DNA of 64,000 nucleotides from Lachnospiraceae bacterium (GTDB taxonomy: Bacteria; Bacillota; Clostridia; Lachnospirales; Lachnospiraceae): the NCBI GenBank assembly GCA_050309585.1, contig JBNRML010000073.1:7950-71949 (forward strand), in the 5' to 3' direction. Positions 7,022 to 42,583 of the stretch are shown here, in pieces (positions within the stretch are counted from its first letter, which is position 1; each line of letters opens with the position of its first letter). The notes below the pieces were generated by a model. The model was not told the origin of the DNA, made no database searches, and saw nothing but the letters and a program-made list of their open reading frames with translations. The position numbers and the translations under genes were made by a program.

Positions 7022-7069
7022 ATGTTTTCACTGGCATCCTCCGTTATGGAACGTCGGTACTGCTGCTTG

Positions 7070-7270: not shown

Positions 7271-7287
7271 GGGTCACGACCTATAAA

Positions 7288-7323: not shown

Positions 7324-7327
7324 ACTG

Positions 7328-10141: not shown

Positions 10142-10186
10142 AACTTCCTCCATATAACTGTTTACTTGTTAATATTTTAGCACCTT

Positions 10187-13162: not shown

Positions 13163-13172
13163 TCAAGTATCA

Positions 13173-13213
13173 TGTACCCTCGGAAACTTTTTCCTATATG
13201 CCTTGAGAGTACA
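13173..13213. promoter_or_regulatory. 41-bp imperfect palindrome, copy 2 of the recurring upstream motif
   Basis: tgtaccctcggaaactttttcctatatgccttgagagtaca, directly 5' of the start of the TPR gene. Confidence 0.6.
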
Positions 13214-13309
13214 ATATCTGGTCATATAGAGTAAGTGTATCACACCATACTTACATTGTCAAAAACCTATTACCTAAAATTTCAGGCTAAATTTTATGCC
13301 ACATTGGTT

Positions 13310-16300: not shown

Positions 16301-17743
16301 ATAATCTAAAACCGTGATAAGACTTGCCTTTTTCTTAATCTCATCCTCAAGTTCGGAAATAGCCATACTTTCCTTGTCATCCACTTCCTTTTCTGCCTGT
16401 ACCTTCTTCTGAAGCTCAGCAAGTTTTTCGCCATCAAAAATTTTCTTTATTGCAAGAAGCTCTTTAAGTTCATGAAGCAATGTATCATTTCCCTTAAGAA
16501 TATTGTCCATTACCTGCTTTAGCTTCTCATATTCCTTCTTACACTGCACATATTCAAGGTAGTAATTTCCGCCCTCCAGAAGATTTAATCTCTCATTAAA
16601 GTCTGTTATCTCTTCTTCAATTACCTCAAACTGCATATTTTCCGCCTGAAGTCTTTCCTCAAGTTCACTTAATGTTTTCATATCCACAAGAATACGGGCA
16701 GTCTCAACCTTCTGCTCTAACATATCCTTGTCCTTTTTTATCTCAGCCCTGACTTCAATATTTTTTTCCAAGTCCTTTTTATTTTTATCCTCTAAAGCCT
16801 CCAAAGTGTTCAGGGATTTTTTAAGATTTGTAAATGCATCCTCTATTCCCGAATAAAGCTGCTTTATCGTATTTACCCTCTCAGCAAATCCCTCAATAAT
16901 TTCAATCTGCCGGTCATAATTATTGATTTCGTCCTTCTTTTTTGACAATTCAATAAGTTTATCTTTTATGTTAAGCAAAGTCTCTGCAAGACTTCCATCC
17001 TTATCATTATCTGCATATCTGTTTTTAAAGGATTTCTCAATTATCTCCTCAATAAGAAGGTCCTCGACGACCTTTCTCGTTGTCTTATAATTTGTTTCAA
17101 AATAAGTTCTGACATGTCCCTCAGTCTTATTTATTCCACGTATTATTTCCCATTCGCTTTCATAAAGGCCATATTCTGCAATAAATCTCTGATAGTCACC
17201 TTTGCGCTCAAATATCTTAACCTCCAGACTCATATCCCTCTTCTGAAGCTCCCTAAGATAATTTTTCAAGCCCTGGTAGGTCACTCTCTCTCCATCCTTC
17301 GCCAAAGGAAAATTCTTTATGTCATGGTCATTAAAATTTCTATAAAAAATGCAATAATTGAAATATTCAATGGATGTGCCATTCTTCCTGTCTGACTCAT
17401 TCTCTTCTCCCGAATCCTTTGCCTTTCTCGCGCAGAATCCGGTGAGCATATACCTAAAATTGTCCTTTATATGAACATCACTGAGACTCCACTCAATCAT
17501 TGAATGAATGGTGGTGCTGCCCTCATTTGTTCTGAAAAGCTTTTCTATGGGCTGTTTGTCATCCAGGCTACAATTAGGAATGAGATTCTGAAGCAGTAAA
17601 AGCATTAACACACTTTTTCCGCCACCATTTGCCAAATCATAAATGGTATTTTTGCAGGAAAAGCGCATTAAAAAGTCATCATAAAACTGGGTTCCAAAAT
17701 TATATTTAACGTTGTTTACCCTTATTCTGTTAATATGTGGCAT
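13310..17743 (-). CDS. jetC: SMC/MukB-like ATPase, Wadjet type III JetC-like
   Basis: Walker A DLANGGGKS, ~1000-aa coiled coil, signature-like GSTGQS and Walker B-like IFIDNPFG; follows jetA/jetB-like genes. Confidence 0.8.
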   Translation of the reverse strand: MPHINRIRVNNVKYNFGTQFYDDFLMRFSCKNTIYDLANGGGKSVLMLLLLQNLIPNCSLDDKQPIEKLFRTNEGSTTIHSMIEWSLSDVHIKDNFRYMLTGFCARKAKDSGEENESDRKNGTSIEYFNYCIFYRNFNDHDIKNFPLAKDGERVTYQGLKNYLRELQKRDMSLEVKIFERKGDYQRFIAEYGLYESEWEIIRGINKTEGHVRTYFETNYKTTRKVVEDLLIEEIIEKSFKNRYADNDKDGSLAETLLNIKDKLIELSKKKDEINNYDRQIEIIEGFAERVNTIKQLYSGIEDAFTNLKKSLNTLEALEDKNKKDLEKNIEVRAEIKKDKDMLEQKVETARILVDMKTLSELEERLQAENMQFEVIEEEITDFNERLNLLEGGNYYLEYVQCKKEYEKLKQVMDNILKGNDTLLHELKELLAIKKIFDGEKLAELQKKVQAEKEVDDKESMAISELEDEIKKKASLITVLDYQLAEKQKHLEKVNAEMIEEKNNAGILLPAEAKNRLREIKLQEEELNKEAAEIEAELERLSDVILNLKIEIQDEKHQIQHKEEKKLSIQNNVAKLLSVHDKLNKIKQVYQESDLNKLAENIEKTYRNMILAVETASKQGKDNEQEIKNLELGKAFSETEDILNVLNYVQRYHSTKAISGADYLAKTDEEERRELVNRIPLLPYAIIAFENYEQIIMDSRISGLIKTGQILPVINGENIHKIDKNDIEAFAFLTVALVDFSKGGINKKREKLNNDKLELERVLRRKCENEQVVKEDFLFVRSVMDNYFASEDINPDEAIENLSNEIDEHTKKQVDLMRRLDETREAERNLKENQVKNHIAQEDIRKAIISLQRLVELVDDFHETEIFIRDKKEIKARGEKENNDLLKRLEAHKNVREQSNFRMASLIEELEGKKQFWSGVVAGYFDESVYSEVKNSQEKQMMYSYDELEIKIQAAFEAIRKENNSVADKEKLLENYQTNMERSLSHIDYMGMDIIIFENMYRNNELIHSTSKELSEIKKHQSDLRNREKQKRKTIQEIRTEKDILKGKINHSVALLKNKYGSFDENLVKQEEVKIFLEENGRILHELDGRLEEINRCIKDIEGKQISVISLRRDVTRLMTKSGIKQDVCVGVFETGVQLEKVCQETSEKLDKFIEEKFKKGEQFLKELSLLCETLKKLGAQDLASEFRLNINMPADLEETSELIKMLKETNELIELEKQRVIKGLSDIQIIKENFEKQCIQSCINIKTELDRLSKLSKINIDNENISVINLKIPYIKEEMYEDRMSEYIDRLVKATDNIETEEERLKYIKNNLSWKKMFSVIVSDMNAIKLNLYKRERIADQSRFLPYEEAVGSTGQSQGIYIQFLISIINYISSINSKNADASRLKKVIFIDNPFGAAKDVYIWEPIFKLLKTNNVQLVVPARGATPAITGKFDVNYVLGQKICDGKQQTVVVDYFSNVNNDEMEYTALEYEQTRLF

Positions 17744-18449
17744 CAGCTTCTCCTCCTTTCATAATCTCATAAAGTCGTCCCTTATATTCCTCAAAATAAT
17801 TTCTAATCAATGCCTTAAGTCTTTTCTTTGGATAATATCTTCCATTGTTTTCAATAACAAGCTCCTGTTTCACCAGAAAATTCATTGTCATTTTGACAAA
17901 TCCAACCTTTGAGCCTCTGGCAGCCTTTGCAGTAGTATCTTCATTGGCAACCATGGGAAGGTCCTCCCACACAAGCGCTATAGCCTTAAAGCTGTTCTCC
18001 TCAACCTCGTCAAGGTTTAACATTTGAAGATTATTTACAGTTCCCGACAAAGAACTGTCAACACTGTTTATCAAATCCTCCACCTTCACATACTCATTGA
18101 AGGTCACATTTTCTGTGTCATTATAGAACCAGGTTATCAGATTATAAATTATAAAATAACACAAAAAAAGCTCCCTGTTCAGCCTTACCCCTATCTCTCT
18201 TTTAAGCTCTTCATTGGAATAGCCGAACACACGATTATTCTCTCCTGCAGAAGCAAAAATTGCATTTTCGTACTCATAAATTGACAGATTCATATTCTTG
18301 CATATTGTATTTGTAATCTCATACACTTCGCTATTGTCAATATATGCCTCATAAAGGGAATATGTTTCCTTGTCGTCTCTGCTTACCTCTTCTCCTGTTA
18401 TAAGCTTTGATATAATTTCAAGTGCCTTGGTTAAATTTCTATCTTCCAC
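17730..18449 (-). CDS. jetB: Wadjet JetB-like / MksE-like KITE protein (DUF6063-like)
   Basis: 239 aa with VFGYSNEELK and LCYFIIY motifs; overlaps the jetC start; middle position of the trio. Confidence 0.7.
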   Translation of the reverse strand: MEDRNLTKALEIISKLITGEEVSRDDKETYSLYEAYIDNSEVYEITNTICKNMNLSIYEYENAIFASAGENNRVFGYSNEELKREIGVRLNRELFLCYFIIYNLITWFYNDTENVTFNEYVKVEDLINSVDSSLSGTVNNLQMLNLDEVEENSFKAIALVWEDLPMVANEDTTAKAARGSKVGFVKMTMNFLVKQELVIENNGRYYPKKRLKALIRNYFEEYKGRLYEIMKGGEADATY

Positions 18450-18452
18450 AGC

Positions 18453-19964
18453 TTACCTCTTTTCCGTGACAAATCTCACATTTAATATTTCGTTTCCATG
18501 TATATTTATAATTTCTTCCTCTTCTAAAGGTTCCACATCAAATGTGAGATATTTATACTTCTCTTCCTTAACATTTTTCATAAAGCCCTCTAAAAATGTG
18601 TCTGGCTTCTCCCTGATTTCCATCATATCATAATGTCTCTTCTGACAAATGTGCACCATAAATGAGTAATAATCTGAATTATTGAACACGTTTTCTGAAA
18701 ACCTGCCCTTAAGTTCTTCATTAAACTCATTCACATCAAAGCTTTCCTTTTCGACAAGAAGCTCAAACAATGTATCAAGCATTTTACAGAAGTTTGAATC
18801 TATCCTCTCATCCTGAAGCTCGTCCTCGTATTTAAAGTCAGAATCATAGCTAAGTTTTTTTATTTTTTCTCCATTTTCTTTTTCTTCAGCCTTCAAATTA
18901 AGCATATTATCAATCACGGTAAGAGAAAATGTCTTTTTATTATTTAGCTTTAGAAGCGGTTTAATGAGACTGGAAAGATTTGAAGAATCATCTCTTGCAA
19001 TCATTTCTGACATAATTCTTCTAAAATCAAATCTTGCCTTTATTCTGCCAATCTTTGCCTTATGGACCATTTCATCCACTGTTGACTGAAGATTTGTGCA
19101 GGCAAGCAACAGTTCTGAATGCTTGTTCATCGCCCTGTTTAGCTCCGTCTCCAATTTGTAAATATCCTCCATGGCCTGATAAAATTCCTGATTTCCCTCT
19201 GCTGTCCTAAGCGCCTTTTCGATAAGCTGTTTATTCTTCTCAAAGAGTTTCTGCTCATCATCAAACCATTTTACCGTGGTGTCTATAAATTCTTCATAGG
19301 CCTTTGTCCCCTCGAAAACATTAAAGCTCAATATCCCCAAAATCTCATCCTTTTTGGATATCAGACGGCTCACTTCATTATTTATTCTGGCAACAACTTC
19401 TGTTCCACCCTTGAAATTGTGGTTAGAAATCATTTTACTAAGCAGTACCTGTGCCACGGTTATATTTGATTCATCTTTAACCTCTTTTGTATCCAGATAA
19501 AATTCTATTGCGTCTGAAGTAATGTAATACACCACATTATCTTCTACTATTTTATTATCAATAATCCTTGTCCTAAGCACAGCCTTCTTTTTTGTTACAG
19601 GATTAAAATATTCGTATGTAAATGGTTTACCCTCATTTTTGAGCTTGTCAAAAATAAAGCTCACCAGCTCTTTTTCCTCTTCTTTATTCATTTCAAGTTC
19701 AAAATCACGCCTCAAAAGCTCCCCGCAAAAATCTGCATACTCTTTGTAGGTCACCATTTTTTCCCTGAAATTATTTTCTTCAATAAAAAAGCGTAACACC
19801 GCCATCATGATATATCCCATATCCAGTTTCTCAAAACGTCCGTCCCTGTACTGGGAAAAGGACGTTTCAGTCAACTTAAAAAACGGGTAATATTTCTTGA
19901 TGTTCAGCATACGCTCATTATGATCATAAACTATATCTCTAACTAATGTATATTCCTCGGACAT
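18453..19964 (-). CDS. jetA: Wadjet JetA-like / MksF-like kleisin
   Basis: 503 aa, winged-helix-like N-terminus (YYITSDAIEFYLDTKE) plus helical region; first gene of a translationally coupled trio with an SMC ATPase. Confidence 0.65.
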   Translation of the reverse strand: MSEEYTLVRDIVYDHNERMLNIKKYYPFFKLTETSFSQYRDGRFEKLDMGYIMMAVLRFFIEENNFREKMVTYKEYADFCGELLRRDFELEMNKEEEKELVSFIFDKLKNEGKPFTYEYFNPVTKKKAVLRTRIIDNKIVEDNVVYYITSDAIEFYLDTKEVKDESNITVAQVLLSKMISNHNFKGGTEVVARINNEVSRLISKKDEILGILSFNVFEGTKAYEEFIDTTVKWFDDEQKLFEKNKQLIEKALRTAEGNQEFYQAMEDIYKLETELNRAMNKHSELLLACTNLQSTVDEMVHKAKIGRIKARFDFRRIMSEMIARDDSSNLSSLIKPLLKLNNKKTFSLTVIDNMLNLKAEEKENGEKIKKLSYDSDFKYEDELQDERIDSNFCKMLDTLFELLVEKESFDVNEFNEELKGRFSENVFNNSDYYSFMVHICQKRHYDMMEIREKPDTFLEGFMKNVKEEKYKYLTFDVEPLEEEEIINIHGNEILNVRFVTEKR

Positions 19965-24111: not shown

Positions 24112-24374
24112 TCCGTGCGCTTTGCTTTGTATACAGCCCATAAGCGTTACCTCTATAGTTAACTCAGTCCAGGCTACCTCACGGCACACAGAAGGTTTTG
24201 CTTAGTGCTGCTTCATTCCTGACCTGACACAGTTCACAAATTTCTGTTGCGCAAGACCTAAACGTCATCGCCACTTGTAGAGGGCAGCCCTACAGAATAT
24301 ATCCGAGGCAAAACATCACCCCTGCTAGAGCGGGTTGCAGGTACAGGGCACCGCTATCTCCCCGGCTGCACGGA
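24112..24374 (-). ncRNA. ffs: large bacterial signal recognition particle RNA (scRNA)
   Basis: Minus strand begins ccgtgcagccggggagatagcggtgccctgtacctgcaacccgc (Alu domain), contains gtcaggtcaggaatgaagcagc (helix 8) and ends in gcacgga pairing with the 5' end; upstream of the dnaX cluster as is typical. Confidence 0.95.
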
Positions 24375-24485: not shown

Positions 24486-27400
24486 CTACTTCAACAGCTG
24501 CAAAACCATTTCCTGACTGGCATTTGCCTGGGCAATCACTGACTGTCCAACCTGCTGCAAAATACTCAGTTTTGAGTTTTCTACCATTTCAGAAGCCATA
24601 TCCGTATCTCTGAGACGTGACTCTGCACTCTGGGTATTTTCAGAAGTATTCTGATTTCCAAGAACTACATGCTCAAGTCTGTTTTGAACCGCTCCCATTT
24701 CACTTCTCTTTTCAGAAACCTTATCAAGTGCCTTCTGCAGTCTGGCAAGAGCCTTCTCTGCATACTTAGGTTTTGTGATAACTACGGAATTAATTCCAAG
24801 TTCAACCGTGTTAAGTATCTGTTTTTCAAAAGCCATGCTATCCTGACCTGTTCTTCCATTGCCATTTGCTGACGCAGTTCCACCCTTTCCACTCAACTGA
24901 AGATTTAATGTATGATTCTCATCCTGTGCTGACTGGGTTTCAAAAAATAATACAGACTTTGCAGAACCACTTATATTTCCTATAAAGTGCTTTCCATATT
25001 TCTCATAATACATTTTCAAATATCCGTCATCACTTTTAACCTGGACCGAAGCACCCTGGGCTGTCAATTTATCATTTATTTCCTTAATGATTTCATCACT
25101 AGTATAATCACCCTCATCCAAAACAATGCCATAAGCTGTTCCATCTATTTCAAAATTCAATTGATTATTGGTATTATCAATCTTTACACCACCACTCAAA
25201 TCCTTTGCACCTTTGACATAGGCAGTCTCCATTTTTCCTTCAGACTGATAGAATATTGTAAAGGCCGCACTGCCCCTTACACCATCAATGATGAAATCTC
25301 CCTCTGCCGGTGCATTTACATTTTTATTTTGAATAAGGCATAAAGCATTACTGTCATTTGCACCTGCAACTCCTGTATTTACTCCACCTATTTGAGCTTT
25401 AATAAAGTCTTCATTTATTCCTTTTTTTACCAGCTCTTCATTTATCTTCTCCTGAAGTTCTTTGACCAGGGCATCACCTGAATAATTTCCCGCCGCAATT
25501 GTAACACTTATCTTCTCAACTTTATTCCCATATGTCAAATCAAACTCAAGATTGTCATTAACATTTCTTTCAATTACCATCATCTCATTTTTTATATCTC
25601 TGCGGCCTACGGCAAAAGCTGGACTTAAGGACTGAGTACCTGCTTTATTGCTTACCGACACGGTTGTACTGTACTCCCTGGTATCACAGAGAACATAATA
25701 GTAAAATCCCCCCGAAAAATTTCTCATTGTATTGGTGCTTCCCGGTTTTTTACATTCTATTCTGACACCGTTTGCGTCAACCTTAGCTTCAAGCTTTCCA
25801 CTTCCAACTGCATTATCCAGCAGAGTGTTTAAAGTCGTTTTCAACTCATCAAAGGTATATGACTTTTCCGGAAGTATAATATTAACAAATTTATCTGCTC
25901 CCTGGTCCTTAAATGTAAATCTAAGCTGTTTATTATAGCTGTATATATCGACCGGTGATGTTATGTTCGCTCCGTCAATATATGCATAATCGTTTGAGGA
26001 ATATCCGGCAACAGCAGAAGGCGACACATAATTTATTGTTTCGGTATTACTTTGAAAAGCTCCTCCGTTATTTGACGAAACCTGAATGGTTTTATTGTTG
26101 TCTATCGTCGTAAGCTTTAACTTACCATCTCCCGTCATCTCTGCCGTAACACCCGGAGTCTTTTTTGTGGTAGAACCATACAATGCCTCTGCCGAACTTC
26201 CCATGGAAGTATATGACTGATAAATAGATGAATCTGCACCTTTAGTTGTAGTTGTGTATGTGATTTTTCCTCCATTCAGACTTGCAGTAACCGGCACGTT
26301 GCCATCCCTAAACTTTTGATTTAGCATACTCACAAAACCCGACTGACTATATGATCCATTGTCCAGATCAATATTATATGTGGTTCCGTTTACCTTAATG
26401 TTGTATTTATTTGTGTTATCATCAATCACAACAGGATTTTTTATTGTCAAATTTACTGTTCCCGTAGCCGGAGCCTTCGTATATACATCCCCAAACAGAG
26501 GAATCTCACTTGTCCCACCTTTACCATTCTGGTTTGAATAACTAATACTCACTCCATTACCGACCGCTCCTGATGTAAGAACAAGCTTATTTCCACTGGT
26601 TGATGCTTTGACATCTATTCCCTGTTTTGCTAATTGTGTGTTTAATTCATTTGCAAACGTCTGCGGTGTGTAAGTGTTATTGCTAAGAGTCAGATTAACA
26701 TTCCTTACCATCATTCCATCATTATAGGTAAAACTAAATGTATTGGTAGAATCATCAATCTTAATCGAAGATGCCATATCCTTACTTGAAACAGCTTTTG
26801 CCTGTGTTCTTGTAGTAAATAATTCTCTTAAAAAACTGCCATTATTGTTATTGATGCTAATATAAGTGTATCTACCGTCATACTCTTTTCCGTCTGAACC
26901 TTGTGTTCTCGCTGTAAATACAAGCTGATTGTTTTGGTCAAGAGATACCTTGGCACCTCCATAATATTTTGAAAATGCTTCATCAATTTTTTTCTGAATC
27001 TGATCCCTTAACTTCTCCGGTGTGTATTCCCCTGCATCTAACCTTATCATTTTTTCACTAGGTCCGCTATCTCCTTCAATGGAAATGGCAAATTCGTTAT
27101 TTGAGGAATCAATCACCGTTTTCGCACCCAGAGGTTTTGTAACTGTTACCATTGCCGGGATATTTACAGCCGTTGCCCCCCCTATACCCTGTATAGTATC
27201 TGAAACTCCCGTGTTAGACGCACTAAAAGGGGTTACTGACGTATTTCCGCTTCCATTTATTGTAACCGAGTTTGCCGTGGTGGTTCCATAAACATTCAAA
27301 GCCGTAAATGTATTTGGTATTTTCTCAATCTTTTCAGCAAGCTTTTCATTTATCTTTTCCACAAGTTCATCATGGGTATAGGTTCCACTGTCCAAATTAA

Positions 27401-29417
27401 CAGGTCTGTTTATGCCATCTACAGTTACAATGAATGAATTATTTGTGTTATCAAGTGTTACAGGATTATCTATTTTCGTATTCAATGTAATGCTTGCTGG
27501 TCTTGTTGCTGTACCTGTGTCCTTCACCGTCTGAACATTCTTAACTATATCTTCTCTGACAAAAATGTCATTATAGCCCGTATTTGTACCTGATTTTTCC
27601 ACCCTTACAGATGTGACACCGCTTCCTGTGATACTTGTTAACTTTATTTGATTGTTCACTACTCCCACTGACAGCTTACCTTTATATCCTGCCATTGCCG
27701 AGCTTCCGTCTAATTTATCATTAATTGCATCTCTGATACTGTTTACCGAAGAGTATGTTCCGGCATCCAGCTTAATGGTATATGTAGAAGAATTATCCAG
27801 CACAAGCTTAAACTCATCATTTATTCCAGCTGTAACAACCAATGGCAAATGGCTGGAATCAAAAACCTTTGCCCCTGTTACATATGCAGGTGAATCCGCC
27901 CTGCTTTCAGCATATGTCTGAGGATATGCATTGACAACAGCATAAGTTTGATCTGTAAACAATGTGTTATATGCACTTGAAGAAGTGTCAAACTCAATTT
28001 TACTGTCAATTCCTTCACTATTGGTTGTGATGCTCAGTCCCGAGTAATACTCATTACCATAACTGTTAACATATGCATTTACACCATTGTTCCTAAAAAG
28101 TCTCGTAAGGGTTTCTGCCATACCGCTTACGCTGTAATTCCCCTCCGGAATGGTTATTGTATTCATTATTCCACCATCAACACTAATCCCCAACTTGTTA
28201 TTTGTACTGTCAATGACAAAATGATTATTCTTTTCATCCGCCATTGAATTGGTAACAACAAGTCCGCCCTTAAATTCTGCAGGGCTCTGAATGGTGGTTC
28301 CATATTGAATATTATCATAAAAGACAGATGTGTATGACTCTCCTATAACATTTGAGTCCACTTTAAACATATTTCCTTTAAAGCCTGTTATAATGCAGGT
28401 ATCACTCTGAAGCTTAATGCTCTGTCCAGAAGCAACTGCCTGAATATCCTTTCCTGCACTTGTCAGCACGGAGTTCAGATAATCTATCATTTCCTTTCTT
28501 GTATATCCACCCTTTTTTTCTGGAATTGTAATATCCATTCCATCAGTATTGCCATTAAAGTCAAGAATGTCGAAATGCATGAAATCATTTTTTCCCGCAG
28601 CAATCTCCAACCCTTTGTTTTCATATGGAAATGTGGTTGTTCCAATCAATGCCCCCACACTTCCACCGTCATAAACGTCATTAAGTAAATAAGAAAGTTT
28701 TCCTGTAATACCCACAATTTCAGAACCACCTTCAAAATTCAGATTACAGGTTCCCTCCTTTGTATATTCCATATTAAATCCGTTATCTCTTACGCCTGCC
28801 TCTTCAAAAGCATCATCTAATTCATCAATAAGTTCCTGGGTTGTATAAATACCTGCGTCAACCTTAACCGTAAACTGTTCCTCCACGCCTCCCGGTTCCT
28901 TTATATATGACACAGTGAGAGTATTTTCACCATCATTAATAATATGCCTCTGGCTCTGACTCCACACTACATTTCCCGTGTGCTGGTAATATGTGGACTG
29001 ATGCTCTTCAAAAACATTTTTTGTGTTAAATTGTGTTGTACTGCCAATCTGGTCAATCTGAGACTGCAGCTCATCGAATTCCTGCTGAAGTGCTGCCCTG
29101 TCCGCATCCGTGTTTGAATCATTTAACGACTGGATCGTGATTTCAGACATCCTGTGCAAAATATCGTGGACCTCATTTAATGCACCATCTCCCGTCTGCA
29201 TCCAGCTTATTCCGTCCATGGCATTTCTTTCTCCTCGGTCCAGGCCACGTATCTGAGCACGCAAAGACTCAGAAATTGTCAGCCCTGCTGCATCATCTGC
29301 TGCCATGTTTATCCTGTAGCCTGAAGACAATTTTTGAGTAGACTTTGTTTTATTTTTTGTATTAATCTTATAATTTCTCTGAGCATCCATTGCTGCAAAG
29401 TTGTTTTGTATAATCAT
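24486..29417 (-). CDS. fliC: giant flagellin (~1643 aa) with multi-module hypervariable region
   Basis: N-terminal KLSSGYRINMAADDAAGLTISE and C-terminal RSEMGAVQNRLEH...AESRLRDTDMASEMV...AQAN flagellin domains flanking ~1350 aa of repeats; start reset to MIIQNN (AAGGA RBS). Confidence 0.93.
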   Translation of the reverse strand: MIIQNNFAAMDAQRNYKINTKNKTKSTQKLSSGYRINMAADDAAGLTISESLRAQIRGLDRGERNAMDGISWMQTGDGALNEVHDILHRMSEITIQSLNDSNTDADRAALQQEFDELQSQIDQIGSTTQFNTKNVFEEHQSTYYQHTGNVVWSQSQRHIINDGENTLTVSYIKEPGGVEEQFTVKVDAGIYTTQELIDELDDAFEEAGVRDNGFNMEYTKEGTCNLNFEGGSEIVGITGKLSYLLNDVYDGGSVGALIGTTTFPYENKGLEIAAGKNDFMHFDILDFNGNTDGMDITIPEKKGGYTRKEMIDYLNSVLTSAGKDIQAVASGQSIKLQSDTCIITGFKGNMFKVDSNVIGESYTSVFYDNIQYGTTIQSPAEFKGGLVVTNSMADEKNNHFVIDSTNNKLGISVDGGIMNTITIPEGNYSVSGMAETLTRLFRNNGVNAYVNSYGNEYYSGLSITTNSEGIDSKIEFDTSSSAYNTLFTDQTYAVVNAYPQTYAESRADSPAYVTGAKVFDSSHLPLVVTAGINDEFKLVLDNSSTYTIKLDAGTYSSVNSIRDAINDKLDGSSAMAGYKGKLSVGVVNNQIKLTSITGSGVTSVRVEKSGTNTGYNDIFVREDIVKNVQTVKDTGTATRPASITLNTKIDNPVTLDNTNNSFIVTVDGINRPVNLDSGTYTHDELVEKINEKLAEKIEKIPNTFTALNVYGTTTANSVTINGSGNTSVTPFSASNTGVSDTIQGIGGATAVNIPAMVTVTKPLGAKTVIDSSNNEFAISIEGDSGPSEKMIRLDAGEYTPEKLRDQIQKKIDEAFSKYYGGAKVSLDQNNQLVFTARTQGSDGKEYDGRYTYISINNNNGSFLRELFTTRTQAKAVSSKDMASSIKIDDSTNTFSFTYNDGMMVRNVNLTLSNNTYTPQTFANELNTQLAKQGIDVKASTSGNKLVLTSGAVGNGVSISYSNQNGKGGTSEIPLFGDVYTKAPATGTVNLTIKNPVVIDDNTNKYNIKVNGTTYNIDLDNGSYSQSGFVSMLNQKFRDGNVPVTASLNGGKITYTTTTKGADSSIYQSYTSMGSSAEALYGSTTKKTPGVTAEMTGDGKLKLTTIDNNKTIQVSSNNGGAFQSNTETINYVSPSAVAGYSSNDYAYIDGANITSPVDIYSYNKQLRFTFKDQGADKFVNIILPEKSYTFDELKTTLNTLLDNAVGSGKLEAKVDANGVRIECKKPGSTNTMRNFSGGFYYYVLCDTREYSTTVSVSNKAGTQSLSPAFAVGRRDIKNEMMVIERNVNDNLEFDLTYGNKVEKISVTIAAGNYSGDALVKELQEKINEELVKKGINEDFIKAQIGGVNTGVAGANDSNALCLIQNKNVNAPAEGDFIIDGVRGSAAFTIFYQSEGKMETAYVKGAKDLSGGVKIDNTNNQLNFEIDGTAYGIVLDEGDYTSDEIIKEINDKLTAQGASVQVKSDDGYLKMYYEKYGKHFIGNISGSAKSVLFFETQSAQDENHTLNLQLSGKGGTASANGNGRTGQDSMAFEKQILNTVELGINSVVITKPKYAEKALARLQKALDKVSEKRSEMGAVQNRLEHVVLGNQNTSENTQSAESRLRDTDMASEMVENSKLSILQQVGQSVIAQANASQEMVLQLLK

Positions 29418-29470
29418 AAATCCTTTTCTCCATAACCCTGTATTTATCACATACTAATACTAATACATAT

Positions 29471-29501
29471 GTATCGACATTTTTTAAAAAAAATAATATT
29501 A
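29471..29501 (-). promoter_or_regulatory. possible sigma28/sigmaD promoter for the flagellin
   Basis: -10-like GTCGATAC (consensus GCCGATAW) ~55 nt upstream of the ATG; the -35 TAAA is not at canonical spacing. Confidence 0.35.
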
Positions 29502-29508
29502 AACCAAT

Positions 29509-29553
29509 AAAAAACTGACGTTTCAGCCACATTCGCCAAAACATCAGCTTTTT
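29509..29553 (-). terminator. terminator after the MCP gene
   Basis: Inverted repeat ctgacgttt/aaacatcag flanked by A and T runs. Confidence 0.6.
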
Positions 29554-29562
29554 ATTCACACA

Positions 29563-31370: not shown

Positions 31371-32714
31371 TTATTCTTTTTCTTTTATATAACATGAGGA
31401 TAAAATACCCAAAAATACAAAAGAATACACTGTTGTGATGTGCATAGTGTTGCCAAAAAAAGCCGAGACGCAATATGCAAACACCAGAATACCCGCCCCC
31501 ATTATCCACTCTGGTAAACTTTTTACTCTTTTTATACAATGAATAAATATGGTAATTAATGCTCCCAGATAAAAAATCAATGCCGGAATCCCCAAAAAGG
31601 CAGCATACTGAATATACTCATTATGTGGTCTGTCATTAAGACACCCATCCCCAAAGTATTTATTTCCAAGTCCTTCAGGTCCATAACCCAATACCGGTTT
31701 TTCTGTTATATATTTAATTCCGTATTTCCACAGCTTAATTCTTCCACTTCCTGCCTCATCATCACTTGTAATATTTCCTGCATCCTTATAGGTTACAGAC
31801 ATATTCGCCACAACTCTGCCGTTAACAAAATTCATACAGGCAGACACTAAAATAACTATTCCCATTGCGGCAAGTGCTCTGACAAAATATTTTTTGCCCC
31901 TGAATGCAAACAAAACACATCCAAAGAGCCCACCGAATAAAACAGCCAGATAACATCCAAATGTATCATTTACAATCAGTGACCATATATTAAATGCCAG
32001 TGTAATCCCTGCTACACTTCTCAGCGCTTTATTTTTTTCCACCACAACAAGAACTACGAGACACATAATTCCCATGGTCATTAAATATGCAAAGTGATTT
32101 GTATTGTTATAGATTCCCGAATACTCCATACAATATTTAAAATTTCTCTGCCTGCTCTCATAAAATGGTTTAAATACTTTAAAATACTGTATTACAGTAA
32201 TTATAGAAAGAGACGAAACAGAGTATGCCATAATCCTAAATAACAATAATCTGTATTTTTTAGAGGTCACAGCTCTTCCACACACATACATTGCCGCGTA
32301 TACAAAATATGTAAGTAATCCGTCCTTCCTGTACAACGTTCCATACATCGCCAGATATCTGTCTTCTGCTGAAAGTGAAGAAATCACTGCCCACACTAAC
32401 ATTAATAGCAAGAAAACATCCCATATATGATTCTTTATCAGTCCCTTAAAATCAAACTTTTCTCTGCCGTAAAATGCGGAAAGCACATAAAAAATCGCAA
32501 AAATTTCTCCTGCTCCCCCCACAACATAATACAAATTTATATACAGATTAAAATATGCAGAAGGGACAATTAATCTATATGCCCCTTCTACCACCAATAG
32601 AATTATCATTGTGGACAAAATGAAAAATCCACATTTCTCATAAAAACCATCAGGCACTTTCTCATATATTTCTTTAAAACCAAAATCTTCTTTTTTTTCT
32701 TTATTTTTACTCAT
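31371..32714 (-). CDS. O-antigen ligase / Wzy_C family membrane protein
   Basis: ~11-12 TM segments; GSGRIKLW, LGYGP, RPHNEYIQYAAFLGIPAL; NTNHFA. Confidence 0.88.
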   Translation of the reverse strand: MSKNKEKKEDFGFKEIYEKVPDGFYEKCGFFILSTMIILLVVEGAYRLIVPSAYFNLYINLYYVVGGAGEIFAIFYVLSAFYGREKFDFKGLIKNHIWDVFLLLMLVWAVISSLSAEDRYLAMYGTLYRKDGLLTYFVYAAMYVCGRAVTSKKYRLLLFRIMAYSVSSLSIITVIQYFKVFKPFYESRQRNFKYCMEYSGIYNNTNHFAYLMTMGIMCLVVLVVVEKNKALRSVAGITLAFNIWSLIVNDTFGCYLAVLFGGLFGCVLFAFRGKKYFVRALAAMGIVILVSACMNFVNGRVVANMSVTYKDAGNITSDDEAGSGRIKLWKYGIKYITEKPVLGYGPEGLGNKYFGDGCLNDRPHNEYIQYAAFLGIPALIFYLGALITIFIHCIKRVKSLPEWIMGAGILVFAYCVSAFFGNTMHITTVYSFVFLGILSSCYIKEKE

Positions 32715-32726
32715 ACTTTTCAGTTC

Positions 32727-34826
32727 CTATTTTGATATATAGCAGTTTTTTGTGCTTCCCGGAGCTGCTCCACCTTTTTTAACAAGTCTGATTTCTATGG
32801 CCTCTAATCGCTTTGCATAACCCGCTGTACCGGCCGGTGCACCATTTTTCGCCCAGCCAAGCCAGCCATAGGTCTGTGCGTGTACACGATAATAGACATC
32901 ATAATAATTTGCAATATCGCCTGTCAGTTTTATTTCTATTGCCTCAAGACGTTTTGCCTGACCTGTTGTTCCACTAAGGTTATTGTTACTTACAAATCCC
33001 ATCCAGCCATATGTCTGTACATGTGTCCTGTAACTGATTCCTCCACTTATGGACGCAGAATCCAATTTAATCTTTATACCCTCAAGTCTTAATGCCTTTC
33101 CTGCAGTTCCAGCCATTGCACCATCCTTAACATAGCTCTGCCAGCCTATCTTCTGAACATGAGTAGTATATGACACAGACGGATTTTTTACTGTCACCTT
33201 ACACACCGCCGTCTTTAATCCATCTCTTGTTTTCGCTGTTATGGTTGCTGAACCCTGACCGACACCGGTAACCACTCCCGTACTGCTTACAGTGGCCACT
33301 GAGGAATTTGAGGTCGACCAAATTATTGACTTATTTGTAGCATTGGCAGGGGCAATAATAGGTACCAGCTGGGTTTTTCCGCAGGTCGTAAGCACCGCTG
33401 ATGTCTTATTTAGCGACAGCCCCGTCACCGCTATATTTTGATCGCTCACGGTAATCACACATTGTGCCGTTCTGTTTCCATCCTCCGAAGTTGCAATTAT
33501 GGATGCAGAACCAAGACCTACGGCAGTGACAAGACCCGTATACTTATTAACTGTAACCACATTTTTATTTGTGGTCCTATATGTTACTGTCTTGTTATTT
33601 GCATTTGATGGTAATACAGTTGCAGTTAATTTTACCTGTTTTCCCACATCCGTGAGAGTATATGTAGAATAATTCATGCTGACTCCCGTGGCTTTTACTG
33701 TACTTCTATCACCACTTAAGGTCAGTATTTTTTCATTTCCACAGGTGCTGTATCCATAAGATACACTTCCTGTGATTCCCAATCTGTTGATTATCGTATT
33801 TATATTACTCTGTACCCATGGCCAGAAGTTGTCCGTGTTACAATAAAAGTACATATCCGCCGTTAAATCTTTATTCAAGGCCTTAACCACATTATCCACA
33901 GTAAGTGCTGAGAATAAATACAGATTCATTACCTTAAAATAATTTGCCTGCGTATAATTTGTAGTCGGAATGTAATATGGCATATCTGGTTTATGGTCTC
34001 TTGACATCTCGCTGTATGATAAATTGAAATATGCATGATATGTTTTAGTTGACTGGTCATCCCAGGTCAAATCTACATAATAATATCCATTGTCAATCTT
34101 AACCATATTCCATGCATGTCCGCCGCCTGCCTGACCCTCAATATTTGATGACAATATACCTACTTTATATAATGCATACTGAAAGGCCCTTGAATATCCC
34201 TCGCATACAGCCTTTCCGTCAACAAGTGCCCCGTAAGCACTGTGGCTTTTATCACCTGTGTCAACATATGTAATCTTATTAGCCAGCCTGTCGTGTATCA
34301 ATAATTCTCGTTCAAACTCGCTCATGGATGCATCTATTCCACTAATAATACTTGCAACAGCAGAGTTAAATGCCGACTTAGCAGATGCAAGCTGTCCCTT
34401 ACTTATGATATACGAATAAGAAAGACTTATTATCTTTGAATCACTTGAATTATATGAATACGAATACCCCGTTCCCCTCCAGAAGTGCTGCGGATAATCA
34501 TTTGCATATGCCGATGTAACTATTTTTAGCTGTTCCTTTGTTATACGCCTTGAAGCATCCGTAAATTCTATTTTTGCCTCATATTTTTCCACACCTGCTG
34601 CAATTTTATCATACGCATACAGCAGATTTGCACTGTTAGCCATAGTGGCAAGCCTTGAACGTCCATAATAATTTGCCTTATTTACCTCTGTGAGTGCAGG
34701 CAGGGCAGCATATGCCTTTACCTGATACTTCACAAATCCATTACCCGAAACATTAAAAACCATCAAAATGGTTAAAATCAGAATTGATAAAGTTTTTATC
34801 CTACTATTATTTTTTTTCATACTCAT
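32727..34826 (-). CDS. secreted transglutaminase-like protein with two Big_2 Ig domains and ClW repeats
   Basis: Signal peptide; triad AVCEGYS / GHAWNMV / YVDLTWD; WSTSNSSVATVSSTGVVTGV (Big_2); three THVQxxGW...RLEAIEI repeats. Start 34826 (GGAGGA RBS). Confidence 0.88.
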   Translation of the reverse strand: MSMKKNNSRIKTLSILILTILMVFNVSGNGFVKYQVKAYAALPALTEVNKANYYGRSRLATMANSANLLYAYDKIAAGVEKYEAKIEFTDASRRITKEQLKIVTSAYANDYPQHFWRGTGYSYSYNSSDSKIISLSYSYIISKGQLASAKSAFNSAVASIISGIDASMSEFERELLIHDRLANKITYVDTGDKSHSAYGALVDGKAVCEGYSRAFQYALYKVGILSSNIEGQAGGGHAWNMVKIDNGYYYVDLTWDDQSTKTYHAYFNLSYSEMSRDHKPDMPYYIPTTNYTQANYFKVMNLYLFSALTVDNVVKALNKDLTADMYFYCNTDNFWPWVQSNINTIINRLGITGSVSYGYSTCGNEKILTLSGDRSTVKATGVSMNYSTYTLTDVGKQVKLTATVLPSNANNKTVTYRTTNKNVVTVNKYTGLVTAVGLGSASIIATSEDGNRTAQCVITVSDQNIAVTGLSLNKTSAVLTTCGKTQLVPIIAPANATNKSIIWSTSNSSVATVSSTGVVTGVGQGSATITAKTRDGLKTAVCKVTVKNPSVSYTTHVQKIGWQSYVKDGAMAGTAGKALRLEGIKIKLDSASISGGISYRTHVQTYGWMGFVSNNNLSGTTGQAKRLEAIEIKLTGDIANYYDVYYRVHAQTYGWLGWAKNGAPAGTAGYAKRLEAIEIRLVKKGGAAPGSTKNCYISK

Positions 34827-34862
34827 CACGCATCCTCCTCCTTTTATCATACAGAAACGTTA

Positions 34863-37800
34863 TCAGTTCCCCACAACAACAGTTACTGAGTTACTTTTTA
34901 CTATTTCCCCCTTTTCATTTTTCACATACACGGTAAATATCTTTGTTCCCACACTGGTAAGAGGACCTGTGTATGACAACACATTGGAATATTTTTTTAA
35001 CACAATTGTTGCACCAGTCTTAACATTTAACATTTCATACTGGTATGTGTACGTGCCTGCCTCTCCTGTTATGCAAGGAACAAGCTTTACACTGTCTCCC
35101 ACAGTCATATTTACAGTTCCTGTTTTTTCATTAACCTTTAATTCCACTGAAAAAGATGCCTTTTTCGCTACAACAACTGTTACAGAATTACTTGTGACTA
35201 TTTTTCCAGTTCCGTCCTTAACATTTACCGTGAAAATTTTCGTTCCTGCACTGGTAAGTGGACCAGTGTATTTTGCAAGTGTTGTATATCCAGTCAACTC
35301 ATGATTTTTTCCTGTGTTTACATTTTTCATTATGTACTGATATTTGTATCCTCCATTGCCACCTGACACAACTGGAGTTAATACGACGCTATCACCTACA
35401 GTCATATTTACTGTTCCTGTTTTTCCATTGGCAGACAGCTTAACACTCATTACATTTTCCACATTTACCGTGACAGAGTTGCTGGATATTACTTTTCCAC
35501 TACTATCCTTAACATTTACAGTAAAAATCTTTGTTCCTGCACCGGTAAGAGGACCTGTATATGACAATGCACTGCTGTAATCCTTTAAAACAATGGTGAC
35601 GCCTGTCTTAACATTTTTCATTATATACTGGTATTCATAGCTTCTTGTACCACCGGATGCCGTTGGAACAATAGTCACACTTCCGCCAACCGAAAGATTT
35701 AATGTATCACTTGTGTTATTTACCTTCAAATCACATGAAAGAGGTATTATTGTTCTGCTGATTTTTAATGGTTCCTTTTGCAAGGCCGTCAACTCTTTGT
35801 AGTTGCTGGCAAAATATGTGTCTTCGCCTATCTTTGAGGCAAACGCAGTAACCTTCACATAATAATCTTTCTCACCGTTATACTTTGCCTCTGGAAAAGT
35901 CCAGCTATTTGATTTTACCTTTCCAAAATACTCATATTCCCCATCATAACTTTCTGATATGTATATGTAATAATACCCAAACGTTCCCAAAACACCTGAA
36001 TAGGCATCCCAGCTAACAACAGGTAATTCCGAGGTTATTTCATACTTCAGGTTATCAAGTTCAGGTTTTCTAACCAAAGCACTAACTGTCACCGAATTTC
36101 CTTCCACATTTTTTTCATCAACAATGCTATACGGCTTTACCCAGTATACATACTCATTTAACTCATCTGATGCCTTAAATTCCTCACTGTACACAAGCTG
36201 TTCGGTTCTGTTTACATTCTTCATTAAATCGTAAGAGCGTGTATCACTGTTATATTTGTAAACCTCATAAAAGTCTATATCATCTATGCTATTCCATGTA
36301 AATCTGACTTCATCACATACACTTCCGTCAACTGTAATTACAGGAGCTGGTGACTTTACGAGAATACTATCTGAAACCGACGTTGATGAGCTCTCAGTCA
36401 CTCCATTAATTAAATAATTCACGGCAACCTTAAAATATGTTTTTTGGTTGTATTTTATTTCCACTGCATATGATGTGTCCTTTATATCATGAATTTCATC
36501 ATAATTTACACCATCCATCGAATAGAAAAGTGTATAGGACTCTGCACCCTGAACCTCTTCCCAACTTACAACTGCCGATTTACTTTGTTCCGCAACGGAG
36601 GTTATAACCGTTCCTGGCAAATCCGTACTGATACTCTTTATTATCGAAAAATCCGTATACTGTTTTATACCAGACTCATCCGTCACACCTCTCACCTTGT
36701 AATAATATTTTTTACCAGGCTCAACCATATTATCAACATATACATTATCGTAAGTAGGTGCAATCAACGAATAATCCCCATTTACACTTTCGCACCTGTA
36801 AAGCTCATATTGCAAATCTTCCGAAGGCTTATTCCACTCAATACTCACACTGTTAAGTCCTGTCTGCACCAATTCTGTTATCTCCGGTGCCTCGCTTATT
36901 CCGTCATCAACATTTGTGAATGCCTTAATGCACACATTTATCTTGCTGCTTGACATCGGATACTTCTGGTACAAATCCACAAGATTTGTTCCGTCAACAG
37001 AATAATAGCTTTCATTGTTTGCGTTTGCATTATTATATTCAGTGTAGCTGTCAGAATGATACGAATACTCAATTGCAGTACTTTTATCAAAAGTAATTAC
37101 AACAGCAAATGTATCTCCCTCATTAAGCTTAACTGCATTCGGCAACGTCACAGTATAATATCCCGCGTAGGTTGTAGAACCGGTAACAGGCTGTTCCAAA
37201 AGAGGTTCTCCACTTTCGGGATTATCAGTTCCCGTGAAATTTCCATTTTCATCTTCCACATCAAGGGTCGGATTTTTATAAATTTGAATAGAATAGTTTC
37301 GCACTGCGTCCCTTGTTGCAAAGGATACCGCATTCAAATTCTGGTTTCCTGTACCCTCAGGTACCGTAAATACATTTGCATATTTCTTACTGCTTAAGAA
37401 AACTTCTCCACTGGCATAGATTAATCCCTCGCCAAAATATGTGTTTCCATCATATTGATAATTGTAATCAAAAAATCCTGCCGGTGCCACTTCAAAAATA
37501 GTACCATTTGCGATATTATTTCCAATGTCATAATATGAAATCCACATATATCCCTGGTCGTGCCAGCCTGTTCCCCAGCTGTTTTTTATAAGCCATGCAC
37601 CATCACCCTCAGGGACATGTGTTCCATTTTCATCTGTCAACGCAAAATTGTCCTTGCTGATACTGTCATCCCATCCCACTATTGTTATAGCGTGATTGCA
37701 GGATTTAAGCTCATAATTGTAAAAATAATTACCGTTTCTGTACTTATCATCATCGTAATAATATGTCGCCAAAGCTCCATTTTCCATAATCGCTCTTTTT

Positions 37801-38507: not shown

Positions 38508-38530
38508 ACCTTTCCTCCTATTCTACTTTA

Positions 38531-38549
38531 TGTACTCTCGGAATCTTTC
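38531..38549. promoter_or_regulatory. half-copy of the recurring upstream palindrome
   Basis: tgtactctcggaatctttc just 5' of the RBS of the 1214-aa protease. Confidence 0.45.
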
Positions 38550-38572
38550 AGAAAAACATTAATTTTTTTTAC

Positions 38573-42529: not shown

Positions 42530-42583
42530 ACGCATCTCTCCCATCATAATAATTATTTTGTAGTATCTGTTCAGGCCCGTCTT

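What the first reader, a model, noticed from the sequence alone, without database searches (positions are those of the whole stretch)
24486..29417. Giant ~1640-aa flagellin with about 11 repeated surface modules
Seen: intact D0/D1 termini enclose ~1350 aa in which the motif I/VxID..N..(F/L)......I.L..G.Y(T/S)..E(L/I)...(I/L)N.KL recurs about 11 times. No HExxH motif was seen, so it is not a flagellinolysin. No other flagellar structural gene lies in this window, and an MCP is directly upstream. Established: typical flagellins are about 270-600 aa, and giant flagellins have been reported to make thick filaments in some marine gammaproteobacteria. Inference: a thick or decorated filament, a minor adhesive/glycan-binding flagellin, or a substrate for the neighbouring proteases and ligase.
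Basis: partly seen in the sequence, partly recalled or inferred. Interest (0 to 1): 0.8.

Follow-up and report, generated by a model that had tools for sequence, protein, structure and literature searches.

The report
Giant eleven-module flagellin of gut Lachnospiraceae
This is a real, transcribed gene for a 1,643-residue flagellin, about three times the usual size. Its surface part is a chain of 11 old copies of a domain also found in the flagellar cap protein FliD, and it belongs to a little-studied family conserved in more than 100 gut and rumen Lachnospiraceae species.

Summary
The minus-strand CDS 24486-29417 encodes a 1,643-aa, 178-kDa protein. It has complete flagellin N- and C-terminal core domains (Pfam E 4e-38 and 2.5e-19), no HExxH, and 11 tandem modules of about 90-120 aa between the two ends. 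The modules are old duplicates: they are 22% identical to each other, against 32-53% for the same module in other species, and there is no DNA-level repeat.

AlphaFold models show each module as a contiguous beta/alpha/beta unit. A sequence profile and Foldseek both place it nearest the head domains of the cap protein FliD and some flagellin outer domains.

The gene is not an assembly chimera: one 12-kb contig spans it and about 20 runs carry it. It is transcribed in four bovine gut metatranscriptomes. It belongs to a collinear family of about 1,600-1,690 aa found in at least 119 Lachnospiraceae species genomes. One member (Butyrivibrio sp. CAG:318, 1,623 aa) was already listed as a giant flagellin in 2018, but it has not been characterised.

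Gene neighbourhood is not conserved, so the proposed link to the nearby proteases and ligase has no support.

Most likely function: a filament subunit that builds an unusually thick, domain-coated filament, roughly 35-44 nm by scaling. It may be one of several flagellins in the cell. This is a new variant of a known kind, of moderate interest.

The parts
24486..29417 (-). Giant flagellin CDS: 1,643 aa, 177.9 kDa, pI 4.9, stop TAG at 24486-24488
28998..29417 (-). N-terminal D0/D1 core (aa 1-140)
   Evidence: Pfam Flagellin_N aa 3-139, E 3.9e-38. Aligns 1-140 to 1-140 of the solved flagellin 9hpz_A, E 1.5e-66.
24486..24740 (-). C-terminal D1/D0 core (aa 1560-1643) plus stop codon
   Evidence: Pfam Flagellin_C aa 1560-1642, E 2.5e-19
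28683..28955 (-). Module 1 (aa 155-245)
   Evidence: Profile hit aa 160-210, E 5.7e-7 as a non-seed copy. AF2 shows a beta4-alpha-beta3 unit.
28302..28580 (-). Module 2 (aa 280-372). Holds the most conserved outer motif, TGFKGNMF.
27942..28235 (-). Module 3 (aa 395-492)
27564..27836 (-). Module 4 (aa 528-618)
   Evidence: non-seed copy, E 6.6e-8
27198..27476 (-). Module 5 (aa 648-740). The least conserved across the family (mean 32%).
26814..27131 (-). Module 6 (aa 763-868)
26478..26780 (-). Module 7 (aa 880-980)
26163..26447 (-). Module 8 (aa 991-1085)
25698..25967 (-). Module 9 (aa 1151-1240)
   Evidence: non-seed copy, E 8.6e-7; AF2 unit at aa 1146-1243
25254..25574 (-). Module 10 (aa 1282-1388). 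Its divergent second half holds the conserved AAFSIFYQ motif.
24888..25202 (-). Module 11 (aa 1406-1510)
29418..29507 (-). Own 5' region. It holds a purine-rich Shine-Dalgarno sequence GGAGAAAAGGA (29421-29431), an (ATACTA)n hexamer microsatellite (29451-29466), and a sigma-28-like -10 box GTCGATAC (29471-29478) behind a T8 tract.
   Evidence: The promoter assignment is weak.
29508..29554 (-). Intrinsic terminator of the upstream MCP gene. It implies that the flagellin gene is transcribed from its own promoter.
   Evidence: 20-pair stem followed by a T run

Best explanation
The gene encodes a true flagellin (FliC/Hag family). It would be exported through the flagellar type III system and would polymerise through its intact D0/D1 helices into the 11-protofilament core. 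In place of the usual one to three variable outer domains it carries about 1,420 aa (152 kDa), folded as 11 serial, contiguous beta-alpha-beta modules. These are related to the head domains (D2/D3 and beyond) of the cap protein FliD.

Both chain ends must re-enter the core, so the module chain has to run out and back. The core-proximal modules (1-2 and 10) are the most conserved and the middle ones (5-8) the most variable and exposed. Thousands of subunits would together build a thick protein coat around the filament. Scaling from solved or measured filaments gives about 35-44 nm, and a void-free packing gives at least 24 nm.

The coat would change filament stiffness and hydrodynamics, and it would present a large acidic surface rich in Thr, Gly, Asn and Ser to the gut or rumen environment.

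Shown: identity as a flagellin, the module count, their age and fold class, family conservation, gene integrity and transcription.

Inferred: polymerisation, the out-and-back topology, filament thickness and any surface function.
For: Flagellin identity:
- Flagellin_N and Flagellin_C both score far above the Pfam cut-offs.
- NCBIfam flagellin models score 160-191 bits, against 70 bits for FlgL.
- The best solved relatives are filament flagellins aligned from residue 1.

Modules:
- 11 modules were found.
- Paralogous modules are 22% identical on average (maximum 33%). The same module in other species is 32-53% identical.
- There is no DNA-level repeat of module size.
- AF2 models of aa 150-500 and aa 1086-1560 (mean pLDDT 79 and 77.5) each show three separate modules with the same beta-beta-alpha-beta3 order.
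- A profile built from the 11 modules hits only FliD in the PDB sequences: 5fhy E 0.0013 and 5h5t E 0.0046, with the next hit at E 0.09.
- Foldseek top hits are H. pylori FliD 6iwy (E 5.8e-7, probability 1.00) and FliD D2-D3 (5h5t, rmsd 3.9 A over 107 columns). Outer domains of Vibrio and Pseudomonas flagellins follow.

Family:
- At least 180 protein clusters are 34-53% identical over 97-100% of the outer region, and nearly all are about 1,600-1,670 aa.
- 119 species genomes carry a relative. Nearly all of the 80 kept carry Lachnospiraceae or related Clostridia names.
- 55 of the 80 complete ORFs scored (which include neighbouring flagellins) have 10-11 detectable modules.
- The alignment is collinear with few gaps. 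Conservation is highest next to the core and lowest in the middle.

Gene integrity and expression:
- A single 12,025-base contig spans the gene with one mismatch. About 20 runs from 12 studies hold at least 65% of its sampled 31-letter words.
- Contigs from four bovine gut metatranscriptomes tile the gene.

Analogy: flagellins of 1,020-1,190 aa form filaments of at least 30 nm (PMC6248924). A 793-aa flagellin forms a 24-nm filament (PMC11532411).
Against: - No protein-level or microscopy evidence exists for this protein or for any family member.
- Contig depth in the metatranscriptomes is modest (about 1-5, against 6-18 for the MCP gene). That is not the very high level expected of a major flagellin, and DNA carry-over cannot be excluded.
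- No flagellar apparatus gene lies in the 64-kb window, so motility of this organism is not shown.
- Several relatives sit next to a second, shorter flagellin gene, so the giant may not be the main filament subunit.
- All NCBIfam flagellin scores fall below those models' full-length cut-offs.
- The two most conserved inter-module segments were modelled with pLDDT below 50, so the true architecture is not settled.
- A clean sigma-28 promoter was not found here. A CGATA -10 core within 200 nt upstream was seen in only about 20 of 76 relatives, close to chance.
Confidence: 0.6

Rival explanations
1. It is a minor or conditional flagellin. It co-assembles with, or alternates with, ordinary shorter flagellins in the same cell. 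It would occupy only part of the filament or only some flagella. Its module coat would then serve mainly for adhesion to plant fibre or mucus, or for shielding from antibodies, phages or TLR5, rather than for propulsion.
For: - Second flagellin genes of 541-689 aa lie directly beside the giant gene in several relatives (L048, L052, L053, L069; the P0087 locus, which also has CsrA).
- Transcript depth is modest.
- The outer region is conserved across genera instead of being hypervariable, as expected if the surface has a specific partner or packing.
- A block of eight glycosyltransferase genes lies directly upstream in one relative.
Against: - No binding domain such as a lectin or CBM was detected by Pfam in any module.
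- The number of flagellin genes in this genome is unknown.
- This reading overlaps largely with the best explanation and differs only in stoichiometry and main role.
Confidence: 0.25
2. It is a flagellin-like protein exported by the flagellar type III system that does not polymerise. It would act as a free or cell-bound surface protein, in the way FlaC does in Campylobacter (from my own knowledge).
For: - The size is extreme. Exporting and stacking 178-kDa subunits may be costly.
- The gene is an orphan, away from other flagellar genes.
- The same module occurs in giant proteins that lack flagellin termini: P0212 (2,684 aa, 9 modules) and P0276 (5,374 aa).
Against: - Both D0 and D1 segments are full length and are the best conserved parts of the protein across the family (56-71% identity to the query). 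That is expected only if polymerisation contacts are kept.
- Flagellins of 1,020-1,190 aa do polymerise.
Confidence: 0.08
3. One reading: the protein is a dedicated substrate of the neighbouring papain-like proteases or of the Wzy-type ligase, which would process or glycosylate it.
For: Only proximity in this window: Wzy_C at 31371-32714 and two Peptidase_C1 plus lectin-like giants at 34863-42547.
Against: - None of these genes is a neighbour of the flagellin in 80 related loci or in three annotated relatives.
- The Wzy gene fits the capsule/EPS cluster at 42.5-48.7 kb.
- A terminator separates the MCP gene from the flagellin gene.
Confidence: 0.03
4. It is an assembly artefact or a decaying pseudogene.
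For: Some relatives in MAGs have interrupted ORFs (for example L018, L019, L046 and L066).
Against: - One contig spans the whole gene.
- Four independent assemblies agree to within a few SNPs and none of these introduces a stop. The two adjacent changes in codon 456 together give Ser.
- The ORF is intact over 4.9 kb.
- The family is conserved and the gene is transcribed.
Confidence: 0.01

Closest known systems
Giant flagellins of Oceanospirillales (Bermanella marisrubri 1,020 aa, Oleibacter marinus 1,190 aa; Thomson et al. 2018, PMC6248924)
   Same: - Flagellins of more than 1,000 aa with a normal D0/D1 core.
- The outer region was enlarged by internal domain duplication.
- They are shown to form thick filaments of at least 30 nm.
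- That paper's supplementary list already contains a member of the present family (R6QVI0, Butyrivibrio sp. CAG:318, 1,623 aa) and a shorter relative (E. plexicaudatum, 1,278 aa).
   Different: - Those proteins have two tandem 'DE' regions plus an insert. This one has 11 modules and is about 60% longer.
- The host is different: gut and rumen Firmicutes (Lachnospiraceae) rather than marine Gammaproteobacteria.
- All relatives retrieved here are Lachnospiraceae/Clostridia, which argues for an independent origin.
- No experimental data exist for this family.
FliD (HAP2) filament cap head domains, e.g. H. pylori FliD D2-D5 (6iwy), Salmonella FliD D2-D3 (5h5t), P. aeruginosa FliD (5fhy)
   Same: The repeated module matches these domains both by sequence profile (E 0.0013 and 0.0046) and by fold (6iwy E 5.8e-7; 5h5t rmsd 3.9 A over 107 columns). 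H. pylori FliD also strings several such domains together.
   Different: The termini here are Flagellin_N and Flagellin_C, not FliD_N and FliD_C. The protein is therefore a filament subunit that uses FliD-like modules. It is not a cap protein.
Geovibrio thiophilus flagellin (793 aa, outer domains D2-D5, PDB 9au6). It is the largest flagellin structure solved so far (Sonani et al. 2024, PMC11532411).
   Same: A multi-domain outer region on a conserved core, with a wide filament (24 nm).
   Different: It has 4 outer domains against 11 here, and half the length. The present family has no solved structure.
Pfam PF07196 Flagellin_IN ('flagellin hook IN motif') repeat proteins, e.g. the 1,562-aa Methylobacterium 'Flagellin hook IN repeat protein' listed in PMC6248924 S1
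   Same: The module's helix carries the same kind of motif (E-L/I-x3-I/L-N-x-K-L). About a dozen family members have precomputed PF07196 hits, some of them faint. P0202 scores 22.6 bits against a cut-off of 22.7.
   Different: No module of the window protein reaches PF07196 even at E of 10 or less. The module is therefore at best a distant, unrecognised relative of that Pfam family.
Flagellinolysins (HExxH metallopeptidase flagellins of Clostridium haemolyticum and Hylemonella; PMC7643111)
   Same: Flagellins in which the outer region has been replaced by something unusual.
   Different: There is no HExxH and no peptidase domain.

Membership tests
Flagellin (FliC/Hag) | N-terminal D0/D1 helical region (PF00669) | tested here: met
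   aa 3-139, 131 bits against a cut-off of 26.6
Flagellin (FliC/Hag) | C-terminal D1/D0 helical region (PF00700) | tested here: met
   aa 1560-1642, 69.8 bits against a cut-off of 23
Flagellin (FliC/Hag) | Closer to flagellin than to the paralogous hook-filament junction protein FlgL | tested here: met
   NCBIfam flagellin models score 160-191 bits, FlgL (TIGR02550) 70.5 bits. All are below the models' full-length cut-offs because of the giant insert.
Flagellin (FliC/Hag) | Polymerises into the flagellar filament | not testable with these tools
   Needs MS or EM of filaments
Giant flagellins (over 1,000 aa, Thomson 2018) | Flagellin longer than 1,000 aa | tested here: met
   1,643 aa. A family member of 1,623 aa is in that paper's list.
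Giant flagellins (over 1,000 aa, Thomson 2018) | Forms filaments thicker than 24 nm | not testable with these tools
   Only a scaling estimate of 35-44 nm
Oceanospirillales DE-region giant flagellins | Outer region built from DE/DX regions | not tested
   The DE profile is not available here. Indirectly, all sequence relatives found are Lachnospiraceae/Clostridia.
Flagellinolysin | HExxH metallopeptidase domain in the outer region | tested here: not met
   No HExxH and no peptidase family in Pfam
FliD filament cap | FliD_N and FliD_C terminal domains | tested here: not met
   Pfam finds only Flagellin_N and Flagellin_C. Similarity to FliD is confined to the repeated modules.
Pfam Flagellin_IN (PF07196) | A match to the IN-motif model at or above the gathering score | tested here: not met
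   No hit for the whole protein or for any of the 11 modules at E of 10 or less. Some orthologues have borderline hits.

The most novel reading that the evidence does not exclude
The 11-module chain may not be a passive thickening. It could form an ordered, sheath-like protein layer made by the flagellin itself. In that layer, conserved inter-module segments (GALIGTT, FYDNVKYG) would lock neighbouring subunits together, and the exposed middle modules would bind host or dietary polymers. The filament would then double as a long adhesive fibre, or as a shield that hides the TLR5, antibody and phage target surface of Lachnospiraceae flagella. This would be a new filament architecture, more than twice the size of any solved one.
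Probability: 0.15. Interest if true: 0.8.

Novelty: new variant of a known kind. Interest (0 to 1): 0.5.

Why it matters
Flagellins of gut Lachnospiraceae are major immune antigens; anti-flagellin responses in Crohn's disease are one example (abstracts listed). The outer domains of a flagellin decide filament mechanics and surface chemistry.

The largest flagellin with a solved structure has 793 aa and four outer domains. Here is a family of about 1,640 aa with 11 domains. Its length and module order are fixed across at least 119 species, it is transcribed in the rumen or gut, and cultured isolates appear to carry it (isolate-style records among the loci).

It offers a tractable system for three questions. 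How can so much mass be exported and packed on a filament? Why is an 'outer region' conserved here rather than hypervariable? Do FliD-like domains on the filament surface have a binding role?

Tried and rejected
- Pfam on the whole protein and on each module at E of 10 or less found nothing beyond the two flagellin termini. The weak hits were unrelated families hit by one module each.
- A sigma-28 consensus search (TAAA-N15-GCCGATAW, up to 2 mismatches) found no site upstream of the gene. The window total of 20 matches compares with 11.4 expected. A CGATA core within 200 nt upstream occurs in about 20 of 76 relatives, near the chance rate, and only about 10 have a convincing CCGATA box. Sigma-28 control is therefore left open.
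- Synteny with the MCP, Wzy, ChW, C1 peptidase, PFK and dnaX genes is not conserved.
- A 118-sequence alignment was too large for structure prediction and was cut to 47 sequences.
- The very high read depth at 24.2-24.4 kb turned out to be the SRP RNA gene. It is not part of the flagellin transcript.
- SNPs between runs were too few to estimate selection: about 5 synonymous and 5 non-synonymous.
- Short hits in the deep profile search cannot be read as small flagellins. Many lack both termini and are probably gene fragments.
- One Pfam call failed because P0276 exceeds 5,000 aa.
Full report
**1. The observation**

The minus strand holds one long ORF, 24486-29450, starting at a GTG. The likely start is the ATG at 29417. 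It is preceded by the purine-rich GGAGAAAAGGA, and it is where family members begin (consensus). This gives 1,643 aa, 177.9 kDa, pI 4.9, ending LLK-TAG.

Pfam finds Flagellin_N at aa 3-139 (E 3.9e-38) and Flagellin_C at aa 1560-1642 (E 2.5e-19), and nothing else. NCBIfam flagellin models score 160-191 bits against 70 bits for FlgL. The best solved relatives are filament flagellins aligned from residue 1 (9hpz_A, E 1.5e-66). There is no HExxH.

It converged on 11 modules starting at aa 160, 286, 400, 533, 653, 768, 885, 996, 1156, 1287 and 1411.

**2. What the modules are**

The 11 modules are only 22% identical to one another on average, with a maximum of 33%. Each module is 32-53% identical to the module at the same position in other species. 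Tandem Repeats Finder sees no module-sized DNA repeat. The duplications are therefore old, and each module has its own conserved identity.

AlphaFold2 models were made for aa 150-500 (mean pLDDT 79) and aa 1086-1560 (mean pLDDT 77.5). Each shows three separate units built from contiguous sequence. The order is always the same: two to four strands, one long helix that carries the E-L-x3-I-N-x-K-L motif, then three strands. Low-confidence linkers join the units, and no different domain is hidden among them.

A profile built from the 11 window modules alone hits just two things in the PDB sequences. These are the cap protein FliD of P. aeruginosa (5fhy, E 0.0013) and of Salmonella (5h5t D2-D3, E 0.0046), each over nearly the whole module. 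The next hit has E 0.09 and is unrelated.

Foldseek agrees:
- H. pylori FliD 6iwy is the top hit for the C-proximal model (E 5.8e-7, probability 1.00).
- FliD D2-D3 superposes at rmsd 3.9 A over 107 columns.
- Outer domains of Vibrio cholerae and Pseudomonas flagellins follow. Phage tail-sheath outer domains appear at weaker scores.

Most Foldseek E-values are weak (about 1e-2). The assignment rests on the agreement of the two methods.

Pfam's Flagellin_IN model (PF07196) does not detect any window module. It does give borderline hits in some orthologues.

**3. The gene is real and expressed**

About 20 public runs from 12 studies hold 65-99% of the gene's sampled 31-letter words. They are bovine gut, other gut and poultry litter metagenomes, plus runs of a coded 'organism A'. 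One 12,025-base contig covers the whole gene with a single mismatch. Three further assemblies agree apart from a few SNPs, and none of these creates a stop.

Four bovine gut metatranscriptomes hold 34-58% of the words. Their contigs tile the gene at word depth of about 1-5. The MCP gene shows 6-18 and dnaX/recR show 0-2. Contig depth is a poor measure of expression and DNA carry-over is possible. The safe statement is 'transcribed, not obviously at major-flagellin level'.

The very high depth just downstream of the gene is the SRP RNA gene at 24113-24373 (180.7 bits).

**4. A conserved family**

Searching with the outer region alone returned at least 180 protein clusters. Apart from the truncated self-match P0001, all 120 listed carry both flagellin termini, are 34-53% identical over 97-100% of the query, and nearly all are 1,600-1,670 aa. 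An alignment of 118 full-length members is collinear with few gaps. Identity to the window protein is 56-71% in D0/D1, 44-58% in the core-proximal outer parts (aa 160-400 and 1320-1440), and 30-42% in the middle.

Family-specific near-invariant motifs include TGFKGNMF, FYDNVKYG, YTTQELID, GALIGTT and AAFSIFYQ.

A scan of one genome per species found relatives in 119 species. The 80 kept are nearly all Lachnospiraceae from animal and human guts: Lachnospira, Butyrivibrio, Roseburia, Acetatifactor and Eubacterium plexicaudatum ASF492. A few MAGs carry other names that are probably wrong.

Of the 80 complete ORFs scored (a few of them neighbouring ordinary flagellins), 37 have 11 detectable modules and 18 have 10. 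A shorter class of 1,175-1,273 aa has 7-8 modules.

A profile search of 1.84 billion representatives found 1,271 proteins with the module at E of 0.001 or less. Among the top 150, 102 have both flagellin termini and 3-11 detectable modules.

**5. Context**

The upstream MCP gene ends in a strong terminator, so the flagellin gene is a separate transcription unit. Downstream lie the SRP RNA, then pfk, dnaX, ybaB and recR. The rest of the window holds housekeeping genes, a capsule/EPS cluster, two giant C1-peptidase/lectin-like proteins and a ChW protein. There is no other flagellar gene.

Across 80 related loci, only 7 have an MCP relative nearby and none has the peptidases or the ligase. Three annotated relatives have entirely different flanks:
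- a block of eight glycosyltransferase genes;
- a second 541-aa flagellin plus CsrA;
- plain housekeeping genes.

**6. How it most likely works**

Shown: this is a flagellin with complete, well-conserved polymerisation helices and 11 serial FliD-like modules.

Inferred: it polymerises. Both chain ends must enter the core, so the module chain must run out and back. The conservation gradient fits modules 1-2 and 10 lying near the core and modules 5-8 lying outermost.

If filament cross-section scales with subunit size, the estimates are:
- 44 nm from Salmonella (495 aa, 24 nm);
- 38 nm from Bermanella (1,020 aa, 30 nm);
- 35 nm from G. thiophilus (793 aa, 24 nm).

A void-free cylinder would already be 24 nm wide.

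The main rival differs in degree. The giant may be a minor or conditional flagellin beside shorter ones, as the adjacent second flagellin genes in several relatives suggest, with adhesion or shielding as its main use. A non-polymerising secreted protein is less likely, given how well D0/D1 are conserved.

**7. Comparison with what is known, and novelty**

Giant flagellins, their growth by domain duplication, and their thick filaments are known (PMC6248924). That paper's supplement already lists a 1,623-aa member of this family and the 1,278-aa E. plexicaudatum relative, without analysis. In that 2017 list only seven bacterial flagellins reach 1,600 aa or more. The largest solved flagellin has 793 aa (PMC11532411). 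No paper found here discusses this Lachnospiraceae family.

New here:
- the 11-module anatomy;
- the FliD-like nature of the module;
- the age of the duplications;
- the fixed length across at least 119 species;
- in vivo transcription.

This makes it a new variant of a known kind. Interest is moderate (0.5): the existence of giant flagellins is not a surprise, but this family is a good and accessible target for structural and host-interaction work.

**8. Open point**

The most conserved outer motifs GALIGTT (aa 254-261) and FYDNVKYG (aa 366-373) fall in the stretches that AlphaFold2 modelled with pLDDT below 50, namely aa 247-260 and 353-375. They may fold only against the returning C-proximal modules or against neighbouring subunits.

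Noticed in passing
window 24113-24373 (-): A large bacterial SRP RNA gene (Rfam RF01854, 180.7 bits) lies between the flagellin stop codon and pfk. It has a near-consensus sigma-70 promoter (TTGACA-17-TATACT) at 24468-24440. It is very highly represented in the metatranscriptomes (depth 36-722). It is also a branch point in all four metagenome assemblies.
   Followed up: yes
window 29450-29490 (5' region of the flagellin gene): There are length polymorphisms between runs. Run X3 has 12 extra bases, which are two more copies of the ATACTA hexamer (2.7 copies in the window). Runs X2, X3 and X7 have one extra base in the T8 tract just upstream of the sigma-28-like GTCGATAC box. These could alter promoter spacing or the leader.
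   Followed up: partly
proteins P0212 (2,684 aa) and P0276 (5,374 aa): The same module occurs 9 times in P0212 and about 22-25 times in P0276. Both are giant proteins with no match to the window's flagellin termini, and Pfam finds nothing in P0212 (P0276 was too long to scan). The module is therefore not confined to flagellins. Their origin is unknown.
   Followed up: partly
L077 (Eubacterium plexicaudatum ASF492), about 9551-17942: Two matches to the flagellin termini lie in tandem. The first is a 1,267-aa ORF with 7 detectable modules. The second reads as an interrupted ORF: 469 aa, although its N and C matches lie about 3.8 kb apart.
   Followed up: partly
window 34863-42547 (-): Two adjacent giant proteins of 1,214 and 1,324 aa each have a papain-like Peptidase_C1 domain followed by a Lectin_like domain. 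Next to them is a 707-aa transglutaminase-core/Big_2/ChW protein at 32727-34850.
   Followed up: no
window 13310-19964 (-): An apparent operon of a 503-aa ORF, a DUF6063 protein (239 aa) and a 1,477-aa protein with no Pfam match. A 991-aa protein with only a weak TPR hit follows at 10187-13162.
   Followed up: no
window 6173-8176: This region holds one of the few plus-strand genes in the window. It encodes 282 aa whose only match is Sigma70 region 3 at its very C-terminus, so it may be a truncated sigma factor. It is followed by an IS200-like TnpA fragment (7028-7213) and a PD-(D/E)XK transposase-family ORF (7328-8176). The local GC skew is anomalous.
   Followed up: no
L081/L082 (locus of P0006), upstream of the giant flagellin: A block of eight glycosyltransferase or methyltransferase genes ends about 185 bases upstream of the orthologous giant flagellin gene. 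A 426-aa ORF with a faint FliD_C hit lies 5.5 kb downstream. This could be a flagellin glycosylation island in that species. Nothing comparable is adjacent in the window.
   Followed up: no
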